From Candidatus Pyrohabitans jungbluthii (GTDB lineage: Archaea; Hydrothermarchaeota; Hydrothermarchaeia; Hydrothermarchaeales; BMS3B): a DNA stretch of 64,000 bases. The position numbers and the translations under genes were made by a program. Position 1 is the stretch's first letter; each line of letters opens with the position of its first letter. The stretch covers positions 320,001 to 384,000 of the forward strand of contig MTMD02000008.1 in NCBI GenBank assembly GCA_002010065.2, in the 5' to 3' direction. The notes beneath the pieces were generated by a model that was not told the origin of the DNA, searched no databases, and saw nothing but the letters and a program-made list of their open reading frames with translations. Shown piece after piece: positions 8,539 through 10,496 of this stretch.

Positions 8539-9039
8539 ATGGCAATGGCGGAGTTACCCACTGTACCCTATCATCCTACACCTCATGACAAGGCTAAGGA
8601 GCTTCTATCTTTGGCGGAACTCAGCGAGGGCGAGGTGCTCTTTGACCTGGGCTGCGGCAAGGGAAATATACTCATAGTTGGCGCCGAGGAGTTCGGAGCG
8701 CGATGCGTTGGAATAGAGAAGGATGCAGAGCTGGTGAGGGAAGCGTGGGAAGAGGTTAAGAGGCGCGGACTTGAGGACAGGGTGGAGATAATCCATGGGG
8801 ATATCTTTGCTCCCGAGTTCTGGGCGCACTTAGGCGGCGAAGGCAGCGCAGTTGTGCGCAACGCAGACGTCGTGGCAATATACCTCAACTTCGACATGCA
8901 CGAAGTGCTAAAGCCCATGCTTGAGAAGGAGCTGCGCGATGGCACTCGCGTGGCGAGCTTTGAGTTCTTTGTGCGCGGCTGGAAGGTTTATAAAGAAAAG
9001 CCAATGATGTTTGTTTTCAAGAAGGGAGATGGATTTTGA
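8539..9039 (+). CDS. class I SAM-dependent methyltransferase (aKMT/FAM173-like protein lysine methyltransferase)
   Basis: VPYHPTP, LFDLGCGKG motif I, ADVVAIYL, LEKELRDGTRVASFEF. Confidence 0.85.
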   Translation: MAMAELPTVPYHPTPHDKAKELLSLAELSEGEVLFDLGCGKGNILIVGAEEFGARCVGIEKDAELVREAWEEVKRRGLEDRVEIIHGDIFAPEFWAHLGGEGSAVVRNADVVAIYLNFDMHEVLKPMLEKELRDGTRVASFEFFVRGWKVYKEKPMMFVFKKGDGF

Positions 9040-9040
9040 G

Positions 9041-9054
9041 GTTCCAGAGGAAAC
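9041..9054 (+). promoter_or_regulatory. ORB-like (Orc1/Cdc6-binding) motif, single copy
   Basis: GTTCCAGAGGAAAC resembles the archaeal ORB core GTTCCAGTGGAAAC; no G-string and no second copy seen. Confidence 0.3.
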
Positions 9055-9110
9055 ACAGGAAACTGAGGCGAAGTAATAGAAAATATTTTATACTATGATG
9101 TACAATAATA

Positions 9111-9268
9111 GACCTGCGGGCTCGGTAAGAGCTCGGCGACGCTGCTTCGGCAGCAACGCCGGCACAGGCCTCCTCCTTGAGGAGAGCTATGTGTGAGAGG
9201 AAGGCTGATCTGCCTCTTTGAGGCAAGAGAGCCAGACTCTCGGCCTTGCCGAGCCCGCTCTCATTTTT
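9111..9268 (+). ncRNA. candidate structured ncRNA (closing helix plus three hairpin arms)
   Basis: 9116-9129 pairs with 9245-9258; internal hairpins include a cUUCGg loop; G-U wobbles favour the + strand; TTTATA at 9087-9092; T5 tract at 9264-9268. Confidence 0.7.
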
Positions 9269-10496
9269 ATGCTGATTTTCTTCTGTGCAGTTCCTCCGCC
9301 AGCATGGGCAAAAACACACCTATGTCGGTGACCACACCCAATGCTTGAGCGGTACCTCGGTCTGTGAGCTTTGTTACCGTCGCGGGGTTTATGTCCACGC
9401 ATATCGTTTTGACACTGCTGGGCAATATGTTGCCCACAGCTATGCTGTGCAGCATTGTGCACATCATAAGCACCAAGCCTACGCCTCGAAGATGGCGGCG
9501 CATCTCGCGCTGAGCCTCAAGCACATCTGTAATCACCTCAGGTAAGGGTCCGTCGTCGCGTATGGAGCCAGCGAGCACATAGGGTATGCCGCGGCGAATC
9601 ACCTCGTACATTATTCCAGCCTTAAGCTTACCCTGCTTAACAAGCTCCGCTATGCCACCAGCCTTCATAACCTCATTTATCGCGTAGAGGTGGTGGCGGT
9701 GACCGCCTTCAGCAGGCCTCCCTGTCTTGATGTTTACTCCCAGAGAGGTGCCGAAGAGCTGAGCTTCGATGTCATGCACCGCTAAGGCGTTGCCAGCGTA
9801 GAGCACGTCTATGTAGCCCTCGCGTATCATCCTCGCCAAAGCTGGCGCTGCACTCGTATGAACTACCGCAGGCCCGACAACAGCCAAAACCTTCTTGCCC
9901 GAGCGCTTCACCTCGAGTATTGCCTCGGCGATCTGTCTGATCAACGGCTCCGCAGGCTTTTCACTGCTCACGCGGCTGCGCATGAACTCAAATACAGAAA
10001 AGCCCCGCGGCCTCTCCGGAGGCTCAATGCGAATTCCGCTCTGCCCTACAACGACGAGGTCCCCCTTCTTAATCTCGCCTATGGGCTTGCAGTAAGCGCG
10101 CTTCTTCTCTGGTTCAACCACAATTGCTGTGTCCATCTCAATGTCCTCTACCTCAACCCACTCGCCATCAAGGAGCACGTAGGTGGGGTGGTTGGTGGTG
10201 GAGTAAAAGCCATCGGGAAGAGTCCTGTCTTTTGGCGCGGGCTTTAACCTCAGCTCCTCAACTTCAGGAACTCTCGCTCCAACCTTTCGCAGCTCCCCCA
10301 GAATTTCATCAAGTTGCTCCCTTGTCTTCGCCTTTACCAGTATTCTGGCATAGCTGGGGTCGGTTTTGTGCTTTCCTATGTCGAACTGGAGCACCTCAAA
10401 GTCGCCGCCCATGTCCATTATGGTGTCAAAAACCTTTGGGAGAATGAAAGAGTCAATTATATGCCCTTTAAGCTCAATCTCTCGCACTGCCACCAT
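9267..10496 (-). CDS. TIGR00300 family protein (archaeal ornithine cyclodeaminase-like)
   Basis: [40 protein letters not shown] and [10 protein letters not shown] motifs. Confidence 0.9.

What the first reader, a model, noticed from the sequence alone, without database searches (positions are those of the whole stretch)
9087..9268. Unannotated ~145-nt four-way-junction ncRNA candidate
Seen: a 14-bp closing helix GCGGGCTCGGTAAG/CTTGCCGAGCCCGC encloses three arms: CGGCG-ac-GCTGC-TTCG-GCAGC-aa-CGCCG; GCACA-GGC-CTCCTC-ctt-GAGGAG-a-GCT-a-TGTGT; and GAG-aggaa-GGCT-gatc-TGCCTC-ttt-GAGGCA-agag-AGCC-aga-CTC. Non-Watson-Crick pairs within the stems are G-U on the + strand. TTTATA lies about 25 nt upstream and a T5 tract follows. 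It is GC-rich between convergent genes. GCTCGG occurs twice (9120, 9131), which allows an alternative closing register. By eye it does not match tRNA, 5S, SRP, RNase P, C/D or H/ACA consensus features. Inference: an independently transcribed structured RNA of unknown class.
Basis: partly seen in the sequence, partly recalled or inferred. Interest (0 to 1): 0.75.

Follow-up and report, generated by a model that had tools for sequence, protein, structure and literature searches.

The report
Novel four-way-junction RNA gene in Hydrothermarchaeota
A single-copy gene in an uncultivated deep-sea archaeon encodes a very stable, cloverleaf-shaped small RNA that is conserved across much of its phylum but matches no known RNA family, so what it does is still unknown.

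Summary
Window 9116-9261 (+) folds into a 17-bp closing helix, a tight four-way junction and three hairpin arms (-95 kcal/mol, z -7.1). It is single copy in its 2.0-Mb genome. It has no Rfam 15 match, either at gathering score or at E<=10.

Iterated covariance models found 18 homologous loci in 16 of 38 genomes of the phylum. None were found in 113 archaeal genomes sampled outside it.

Across the 18 sequences:
- 91.7% of pair cells are standard pairs, against 67.3% after shuffling, and 42 of 47 pairs change on both sides.
- G-U pairs outnumber A-C 109 to 24, which fixes the + strand.
- A TATA-like box sits 27-31 nt upstream in 16 of 18.
- A T-run follows in 16 of 18.
- A roughly 45-nt upstream block moves with the gene while the neighbouring genes differ.

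So it is a real, independently transcribed structured RNA gene of a new family. Its function is unknown. My best guess is a stable protein-bound scaffold or decoy RNA. No expression data exist.

The parts
9042..9083 (+). Conserved upstream block. It holds a TTCC-N-GGAA dyad, repeated AGGAA-like words about 9 nt apart, and a BRE-like AGAAAA at 9078-9083. It is a presumed regulatory or promoter-upstream element.
   Evidence: An alignment of 105 nt upstream of all 18 homologues gives the consensus ttccA.agG...CA.aGGAAg..aAggt..agtaATagAAAA..aTtTATA. The block is unique in the own genome. It travels with the RNA into different gene neighbourhoods. Its function is inferred.
9087..9092 (+). TATA box (TTTATA), 29 nt before the RNA 5' end.
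   Evidence: A TATA-like hexamer starts at -27 to -31 in 16 of 18 homologues by regex. The other two (G005, G026) show CTTATTA and CTTATAAG at the same place in the printed sequence. Its use as a promoter is inferred from archaeal promoter geometry (established knowledge); no transcript data exist.
9116..9261 (+). Predicted RNA, 146 nt: a closing helix, a four-way junction, three arms and a 3' UCU tail.
   Evidence: MFE -95 kcal/mol, z -7.1. Covariance models R1-R3. Covariation statistics.
9116..9133 (+). 5' strand of the closing helix (14 bp, bulged A at 9130, then 3 bp).
   Evidence: Pairs with 9242-9258. In the 18-sequence alignment this helix is 96.8% paired, and 12 of its 14 pairs change on both sides.
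9134..9161 (+). Arm 1: two stacked helices with a small internal loop and a UUCG cap.
   Evidence: In the 18-sequence alignment its helices 3 and 4 are 83.3% and 97.5% paired, and all 11 pairs show both-side changes.
9162..9194 (+). Arm 2: a hairpin with bulges and a CUU loop.
   Evidence: compensatory changes at 3 pairs within the genus. Each homologue folds an arm here. The arm is too variable to be aligned by the models, so only 2 of its pairs were counted.
9195..9241 (+). Arm 3: a conserved purine/pyrimidine basal helix (GAGAG/CUCUC), an A-rich 3x3 internal loop, and a distal hairpin.
   Evidence: The basal helix is 95.3% paired, with G-C to A-U switches in 9 of 18 sequences at one pair and two invariant pairs. 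A9201 and A9236 in the internal loop are conserved in 16 of 18.
9242..9258 (+). 3' strand of the closing helix.
9259..9261 (+). Unpaired 3' tail UCU (ACU in 11 of 18 homologues).
   Evidence: Tail position 2 is C in 17 of 18 and position 3 is U in 18 of 18.
9264..9268 (+). T5 run, the presumed archaeal oligo-T terminator. It overlaps the stop codon of the convergent ArgZ-like ORF (9267-9269).
   Evidence: A run of 4 or more T starts within 15 nt after the tail in 16 of 18 homologues. Its terminator function is inferred.

Best explanation
Shown: window 9116-9261 (+) is a single-copy gene for a roughly 146-nt, highly structured RNA. Its 5' and 3' ends are locked in a 17-bp helix, from which a tight four-way junction carries three hairpin arms. 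The RNA belongs to a family of 127-165 nt members found in at least six families of the phylum Hydrothermarchaeota. Selection acts on the fold, not on the sequence.

Inferred from sequence geometry: the gene is its own transcription unit. It has a BRE/TATA promoter 29 nt upstream, so transcription should start at or next to the first G. A conserved upstream block probably binds a dedicated regulator. An oligo-T terminator should leave a short NCU-plus-U tail.

Inferred mechanism (my commitment, not shown): the RNA acts in trans as a stable protein-bound scaffold or decoy. It would be recognised through its overall shape, the sequence-conserved purine/pyrimidine helix with its A-rich loop at the base of arm 3, and the terminal G-C/C-G pairs with the NCU/U tail. 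It would not act by base pairing with targets, ligand sensing or catalysis. The reasons are:
- almost all nucleotides are paired;
- the arms are mostly capped by inert UUCG-type loops;
- only 5 unpaired positions are conserved.
For: Fold:
- MFE -95 kcal/mol, z -7.13, and 0 of 200 shuffles fold as well.
- 16 of 18 homologues fold on their own into a closing helix plus exactly three arms.

Conservation:
- 4 of 4 other genomes of the genus carry it at 82-97% identity.
- Model R3 finds 18 loci in 16 of 38 genomes of the phylum.
- Model R2, built only from two other genera, scores the window's genus at 78-102 bits forward and at most 27 bits reverse.

Covariation in the 18 sequences:
- 91.7% of 817 cells are paired, against 67.3% in shuffles; 0 of 500 shuffles reach the observed value.
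- Slid registers give 31.7-46.0%.
- 42 of 47 pairs change on both sides.
- Within the genus alone, 6 of 58 pairs show compensatory changes.

Strand: 109 G-U cells against 24 A-C cells.

Own transcription unit:
- TATA-like box at -27 to -31 in 16 of 18.
- T4 or longer within 15 nt downstream in 16 of 18.
- The upstream block is conserved and unique in the genome.

Trans-acting:
- Neighbouring genes differ between genera.
- The downstream gene is convergent in the window's genus and in G013, G022 and G029a.

Protein-recognition guess:
- Only 5 unpaired columns are conserved in at least 16 of 18 sequences.
- UUCG/UCCG caps are frequent.

Not a known class:
- No Rfam hits.
- The genome has its own SRP RNA, RNase P RNA and 5S rRNA elsewhere.
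- ARAGORN finds no tRNA in the window.
Against: - There is no evidence of a transcript and no mapped ends. No RNA run holding this DNA was listed.
- No partner protein is identified, and no conserved neighbouring gene points to one.
- The RNA was detected in only 16 of 38 genomes of the phylum.
- One genus-level relative (G007, 96% complete) keeps the promoter-like block but has no RNA behind it. The RNA may therefore be dispensable.
- The covariation counts come from alignments fitted to the model, which leans towards the structure. Arm 2 is barely covered.
- The 18 sequences are related, so shuffle controls overstate significance.
- The scaffold/decoy mechanism is an argument by exclusion.
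Confidence: 0.55

Rival explanations
1. It is a diverged member of a known RNA class that current models miss, such as a tRNA-like or Y-RNA-like RNA, an H/ACA guide, or an orphan archaeal GC-rich RNA such as HgcC.
For: It has a cloverleaf-like topology with paired ends and a short 3' tail. Its long closing stem plus U-rich tail resembles Y or vault RNAs (recalled). Rfam models can be narrow.
Against: - No Rfam hit at E<=10 on the element or E<=5 on 13 homologues.
- ARAGORN finds no tRNA.
- The closing helix has 12-18 pairs, not the 7 of a tRNA acceptor stem.
- The tail is ACU or UCU, not ACA, and there is no large pseudouridylation pocket.
- There is no TROVE/Ro60 gene in a genome that is 99.95% complete.
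- SRP RNA, RNase P RNA and 5S rRNA are present elsewhere.
Confidence: 0.08
2. It is a new ribozyme or a ligand-sensing RNA whose active core lies in the junction and internal loops.
For: Natural four-way-junction ribozymes exist (hairpin, twister-sister; recalled). The fold is strongly conserved. The A-rich internal loop of arm 3 keeps two conserved adenines.
Against: - Only 5 unpaired columns are conserved in at least 16 of 18 sequences, and two of them are the 3' tail. Known catalytic or ligand cores keep many more invariant unpaired bases (established knowledge).
- The junction has 0-5 unpaired nucleotides of variable sequence.
- The closing helix of 12-18 pairs is too stable for a switching P1.
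- In the window's genus and in G013, G022 and G029a the gene downstream is convergent, so there is no expression platform.
Confidence: 0.07
3. It is a base-pairing regulatory sRNA that acts on mRNAs.
For: It is independently transcribed, intergenic and small, and its promoter appears regulated by an upstream block.
Against: There is no conserved single-stranded stretch longer than 3-5 nt. Loops are mostly UUCG-type tetraloops and the sequence varies freely so long as pairing is kept.
Confidence: 0.1
4. It is a cis-acting element of the neighbouring genes: a bidirectional terminator or a 3'-UTR structure between convergent genes.
For: In the window it lies between convergent ORFs, and its T-run overlaps the stop codon of the minus-strand gene.
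Against: - The element carries its own TATA box at constant spacing and its own upstream block in every context.
- The neighbours differ between genera, and the downstream gene is sometimes co-oriented.
- G-U pairs outnumber A-C 109 to 24, which fits one strand only.
- A 146-nt four-way junction is far more than a terminator needs.
Confidence: 0.05
5. It is a repeat, MITE or mobile-element remnant, or a chance fold.
For: Long terminal inverted pairing could resemble MITE ends.
Against: - One copy in the 2.0-Mb genome.
- No match in phages or plasmids.
- Compensatory evolution across six families.
- 0 of 200 shuffles fold as well.
Confidence: 0.01

Closest known systems
Y RNAs and bacterial Y-like RNAs (YrlA), and vault RNAs: small stable RNP scaffold RNAs (features recalled)
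   Same: A small independent gene. The 5' and 3' ends pair in a long stem. There is a short U-rich 3' tail and little single-stranded sequence. The presumed protein-bound scaffold or decoy role is the same in kind.
   Different: No Rfam match. No Ro60/TROVE gene in the genome. It has a perfect four-way junction instead of a large internal loop or a tRNA-like module. It is restricted to one archaeal phylum.
tRNA cloverleaf
   Same: A four-way junction closed by pairing of the two ends, three arms, and a short unpaired 3' tail.
   Different: The closing helix has 12-18 pairs rather than 7. Arms are 22-56 nt long, with none of the D, T or anticodon loop signatures. ARAGORN and the Rfam tRNA model do not match. 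The tail is NCU, not NCCA.
Orphan GC-rich structured RNAs of thermophilic archaea (HgcC, SscA; Rfam families, features recalled)
   Same: A GC-rich structured island in a less GC-rich genome, independently transcribed, of unknown function.
   Different: No match to any Rfam family, including these, at E<=10. It was found only in Hydrothermarchaeota among the genomes searched.
Four-way-junction ribozymes (hairpin, twister-sister; features recalled)
   Same: A four-helix junction of similar size.
   Different: No Rfam hit. It lacks the extended conserved internal loops that form their active sites.
Archaeal H/ACA guide sRNAs
   Same: A stable hairpin-rich small RNA with a 3' trinucleotide tail that begins with A in most members.
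   Different: The tail is ACU, UCU, GCU or UUU, never ACA. There is no pseudouridylation pocket and no K-turn or K-loop. The hairpins are enclosed in a common closing helix.

Membership tests
Any Rfam 15 family | Score at or above the family's gathering threshold | tested here: not met
   0 matches in the 64-kb window at gathering score. At E<=10 no hit covers the RNA body (one, Trp_leader, E 8.4, minus strand, touches its last 32 nt); the best nearby hits are C/D snoRNA models upstream, at E 0.11 or worse. Nothing lies over the RNA in 13 homologous loci at E<=5.
tRNA | 7-bp acceptor stem, D/anticodon/T arms, detection by ARAGORN or the Rfam tRNA model | tested here: not met
   ARAGORN finds 0 genes in the window. 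There is no RF00005 hit. The closing helix has 17 pairs.
SRP RNA, RNase P RNA, 5S rRNA | Being the genome's copy of that universal RNA | tested here: not met
   The genome has separate copies above the cut-off: SRP RNA at C2:240017-240335 (218.6 bits), RNase P RNA at C8:80134-80490 (193.3 bits) and 5S rRNA at C2:515496-515616 (91 bits).
Box C/D sRNA | C (RUGAUGA) and D (CUGA) boxes near paired termini forming a K-turn | tested here: not met
   There is no C box in 9116-9261. The weak C/D hits lie upstream at 8993-9075, inside the end of the methyltransferase ORF, and their boxes are not kept within the genus.
H/ACA sRNA | ACA (ANA) box 3' of a hairpin with a pseudouridylation pocket and a K-turn or K-loop | tested here: not met
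   The 3' tails are ACU (11), UCU (5), GCU (1) and UUU (1) of 18. There is no large internal pocket in the folds.
Y RNA / Ro RNP | A Ro60 (TROVE) protein in the genome and a Y RNA model match | tested here: not met
   PF05731 gives 0 matches in a genome that is 99.95% complete, while the control genomes match. There is no Y_RNA hit.
MITE / dispersed repeat | Many dispersed copies with target-site duplications | tested here: not met
   One copy in the own genome, and one or two copies in relatives.
Riboswitch / cis-regulatory leader | Located in the 5' UTR of a co-oriented regulated gene, with a conserved ligand core | tested here: not met
   A T-run and a convergent gene follow it in the window's genus and in G013, G022 and G029a. 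Only 5 unpaired columns are conserved.
Independent archaeal ncRNA gene (generic) | Own BRE/TATA promoter at about -26 to -30, an oligo-T terminator, a conserved structure, and a detectable transcript | tested here: inconclusive
   Promoter geometry, T-run and covariation are met. The transcript could not be tested because no RNA run is listed.

The most novel reading that the evidence does not exclude
The RNA is the core of a previously unknown, phylum-specific ribonucleoprotein, or a molecular mimic. For example, its perfectly paired four-way junction could imitate a Holliday junction or an oversized tRNA and so titrate a nucleic-acid enzyme. Its synthesis would be switched by a dedicated activator bound to the phased AGGAA repeats upstream. 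That would make it a new functional class of archaeal RNA rather than a diverged copy of a known one.
Probability: 0.3. Interest if true: 0.8.

Novelty: categorically new. Interest (0 to 1): 0.6.

Why it matters
Archaea have far fewer described structured non-coding RNA classes than bacteria, and almost none come from uncultivated phyla. This gene has a very strong comparative signature: a compact gene unit with promoter, upstream control block and terminator, and no relation to any curated family. It is a well-defined target. The RNA can be synthesised, probed, crystallised and used as bait without culturing the organism.

If it proves to be the RNA subunit of a new RNP or a structural mimic, it would add a new functional RNA class. 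It would also be a rare example of an archaeal small-RNA gene with a conserved upstream activating element.

The label 'categorically new' applies to the RNA family. Whether its function is new is unknown.

Tried and rejected
1. Expression data. The look-up of sequencing runs listed 22 runs (13 rows hold the stretch or part of it), and no RNA holder was listed. I did not use read laying, because contigs of DNA runs cannot show a transcript.
2. C/D-box sRNA upstream at 8993-9075 (E 0.11-3.2). Rejected: the putative C box is coding sequence of the methyltransferase C-terminus and changes to ATGCTC in G003 and G002. The D box CTGA is TTGA in G001 and G004.
3. Synteny hunt. The RNA lies behind top6A in G013, G012 and G026. 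A filter-free R3 search of 14 further top6A loci found nothing.
4. Upstream block as a general stable-RNA promoter element. It occurs only at this gene in the own genome.
5. The MAFFT alignments of distant members (A3, A8) misalign the arms. I used model-guided alignments instead. Alignments A4 and A9 contained reverse-strand rows and were not used for counts.
Only 1 of the 80 listed loci (L141) holds the RNA.
7. Phage and plasmid collections: no match.
8. Literature. Four full-text searches (listings and abstract starts only) and a term search in bioRxiv 10.64898/2026.10.21.760802 (passages only) gave no description of this RNA. That preprint clusters all prokaryotic intergenic regions, and its closed supplements could contain this locus.
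9. Earlier findings of this scan: no look-alike by sequence or by words.
10. K-turn, BHB motif, leader-trailer pairing, and tail-to-junction pairing were examined by eye. None is consistently present.
12. Method caveat. The first-look filter of the genome search scores only about 20-90 candidates per genome. It missed G009 with model R1, although that locus scores 45.5 bits. 'Not found' therefore does not mean absent.

Full report
**Observation.**
- A 14-bp helix pairs 9116-9129 with 9245-9258. After a bulged A at 9130 it is extended by three more pairs (9131-9133 with 9242-9244).
- The helix closes a four-way junction whose three arms lie at 9134-9161, 9162-9194 and 9195-9241.
- TTTATA lies at 9087-9092, and a T5 run lies at 9264-9268.
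- The unconstrained fold of 9110-9275 reproduces this architecture at -95.0 kcal/mol. Dinucleotide shuffles average -64.2 (sd 4.3), giving z -7.13, and 0 of 200 shuffles fold as well.
- The reverse strand folds less well, at -84.7 kcal/mol and z -5.5.
- The flanking ORFs are convergent. One is a small class-I methyltransferase at 8539-9039 (+). The other is an ArgZ-like/LOR-SDH protein at 9267-10496 (-).
- The RNA is 64% G+C, in a genome of 51%.

**Not a known family, not a repeat.**
- cmscan against Rfam 15 gave no match in the whole window at gathering score.
- At E<=10 no hit covers the RNA body. One (Trp_leader, E 8.4, minus strand, 9230-9327) touches its last 32 nt. The other weak hits are C/D snoRNA models upstream (8993-9075), two lncRNA models, one of which (HOTTIP_3, E 4.3, 9216-9400 +) overlaps the last 46 nt.
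- ARAGORN finds no tRNA in the window.
- The genome has its own SRP RNA, RNase P RNA and 5S rRNA elsewhere, all above the cut-off.
- The element is single copy in the 1.99-Mb, 15-contig genome.
- It has no match in the phage or plasmid collections.

**Homologues.**
- BLAST found the element in 4 of 4 other genomes of the genus at 82-97% identity. Among the other 56 of the 61 genomes searched, the only hit was a 21-nt chance-level match.
- A covariance model built from these five sequences (R1) gave weak full-length hits in three more genomes of the order.
- A DNA search with one of those hits added G009.
- A model built only from the four sequences outside the window's genus (R2) scores the window's genus at 78-102 bits on the plus strand. 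The reverse strand scores at most 27 bits. This result does not depend on the sequences of the window's genus.
- R2 and then R3 (11 sequences) raised the tally to 18 loci in 16 of 38 genomes of the phylum.

| Family | Genomes with the RNA |
|---|---|
| f1 | 6 of 10, plus the own genome |
| f3 | 2 of 2 |
| f4 | 1 of 4 |
| f5 | 2 of 3 |
| f9 | 2 of 2 |
| f10 | 2 of 2 |
| f2 | 0 of 1 |
| f6 | 0 of 2 |
| f7 | 0 of 2 |
| f8 | 0 of 6 |
| f11 | 0 of 2 |
| f12 | 0 of 1 |

- In a sample of 151 genomes, all 15 hits were inside the phylum, so 0 of 113 genomes outside it had a hit. That run used Infernal's stricter filters.
- Absence calls are weak. The tool's first look scores only some 20-90 candidates per genome, and it missed G009 with R1 although that locus scores 45.5 bits.
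- One locus from a record titled as a Candidatus Hydrothermarchaeota MAG (L141) carries the genus-type RNA.

**Structure is under selection.**
- Within the genus, RNAalifold predicts 58 pairs, and 6 of them show compensatory double changes.
- On the 11-sequence model-guided alignment, 94.5% of cells pair, against 72.1% after shuffling, and 41 of 48 pairs change on both sides.
- On the 18-sequence alignment:
 - 91.7% of 817 cells pair, against 67.3% in shuffles; 0 of 500 shuffles reach the observed value.
 - Slid registers give 31.7-46.0%.
 - 42 of 47 pairs change on both sides.
- Folded alone and without constraints, 16 of 18 sequences give a closing helix of 12-18 pairs plus exactly three arms. 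G018a and G020 misfold one arm.
- Caveats:
 - The alignments were fitted to the model.
 - The sequences are related, so the shuffle control overstates significance.
 - Arm 2 is too variable to align and contributes only two counted pairs, although every member has a hairpin there.

**Strand and gene unit.**
- G-U/U-G cells number 109, against 24 A-C/C-A cells. Together with the forward and reverse model scores, this fixes the plus strand.
- A TATA-like hexamer starts 27-31 nt before the first G in 16 of 18 loci by regex. The other two show CTTATTA and CTTATAAG at that place.
- This constant spacing puts the start of transcription at or beside the first base of the closing helix. That is an inference from archaeal promoter geometry.
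- A run of four or more T begins within 15 nt after the 3' tail in 16 of 18 loci.
- Upstream of the BRE-like AGAAAA lies a conserved block of roughly 45 nt. It holds a TTCC-N-GGAA dyad and AGGAA-like words about 9 nt apart.
- In the own genome this block occurs only here.

**Context.** Neighbours differ between lineages.

| Lineage | Neighbours of the RNA |
|---|---|
| Window's genus | methyltransferase upstream; ArgZ-like gene downstream, convergent |
| Genus g2 | protein of unknown family upstream; CMD-family protein downstream |
| Genus g12 | DUF4416 protein (next to a PAN AAA ATPase) upstream; a solute-binding protein gene downstream in G027 |
| G013 | top6B-top6A upstream; BioY-BirA downstream, convergent |
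| G022, G029a | BioY-BirA downstream, convergent |
| G012, G026 | top6A upstream |

- The promoter block, RNA and T-run therefore move as one unit. This argues for a trans-acting product.
- A filter-free model search of 14 further top6A loci found no copy.
- In G007 the upstream gene end and a promoter-like block are kept, but no RNA follows. The RNA may therefore be dispensable.

**Mechanism.**
- Shown: this is a conserved, strand-specific, tightly folded RNA-type gene.
- Inferred: it is its own transcription unit.
- For function I can only argue by exclusion.
 - Only five unpaired columns are conserved in at least 16 of 18 sequences. These are two adenines of the A-rich loop next to the GAGAG/CUCUC helix of arm 3, one loop U, and the CU of the 3' tail.
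 - The arms usually end in UUCG or UCCG loops.
 - The junction has few unpaired bases, and they vary.
- This profile does not fit a base-pairing sRNA, a riboswitch or a ribozyme core. It fits an RNA that proteins recognise by shape and by a few helix positions, that is, a stable scaffold or decoy. The paired ends and the U-tail would give stability.
- I put about 0.55 on the whole statement. Of that, I put about 0.9 on 'real structured RNA gene of a new family' and roughly 0.4-0.5 on the protein-scaffold mechanism.
- A Y-RNA-like role lacks its partner, because there is no TROVE/Ro60 gene in the genome.

**Comparison and novelty.**
- Every membership test for a known family failed. The tests covered Rfam as a whole, tRNA, SRP RNA, RNase P RNA, 5S rRNA, C/D, H/ACA, Y RNA, MITE and riboswitch.
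- Four literature searches (listings only) and passages of one 2026 preprint showed no description of this RNA. That preprint's closed supplements might list the locus among millions of clusters.
- I therefore rate it a new RNA family, 'categorically new' at the family level and of unknown function, in an uncultivated archaeal phylum.
- Interest is 0.6. The comparative evidence is strong and the target is cleanly testable, but there is no transcript, no partner and no phenotype yet.

Noticed in passing
window 8993-9075: Weak C/D-box snoRNA-like Rfam hits (sn668 E 0.11, SNORD35 E 0.37, SNORD91 E 3.2) overlap the 3' end of the methyltransferase ORF. The putative C box is coding sequence and changes in G003 and G002, and the D box changes in G001 and G004. 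I judge the hits spurious.
   Followed up: yes
L021 about 1500-1560 (G007, genus g2): The end of the upstream gene and a promoter-like block (AGTAATAAAAAAACTTATG) are conserved with G005 and G009, but no RNA follows. Model R3 finds none in this genome, which is 96% complete. This is a possible lineage-specific loss of the RNA gene.
   Followed up: partly
search over the phylum; own genome G000: With the Top6A protein of G013 as query, no match at E<=1e-20 was found in any of 10 genomes of family f1 or in the own genome (99.95% complete), nor in f7, f11 or f12. By contrast, 20 genomes of the other families have it at 66-100% identity. Topoisomerase VI may be lost or strongly diverged in these lineages.
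   Followed up: no
L033 193-763 (G020): A 5S rRNA gene and two tRNA-model hits of 126 and 137 nt (probably intron-bearing tRNAs) lie 740-1300 nt from the RNA on the opposite strand, forming a small cluster of stable-RNA genes.
   Followed up: no
L027 1501-1659 and L035 1501-1656 (G018); L031 200-352 and L036 1456-1608 (G029): Two genomes hold two copies. The G018 copies differ in both sequence and context, so they are probable paralogues. The G029 copies are near-identical, including 170 nt upstream, and sit on contigs under 2 kb, so they may be strain variants of one locus.
   Followed up: partly
window 9264-9269: The T5 run after the RNA overlaps the stop codon (9267-9269) of the convergent ArgZ-like ORF. 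The two transcription units end within a few bases of each other.
   Followed up: no
L030, L031, L028, L032, L034: There is recurrent, probably ancestral, synteny: top6B-top6A, then the RNA, then convergent BioY-BirA. It is complete in G013 and partial in G029a, G022, G012, G020 and G026.
   Followed up: partly
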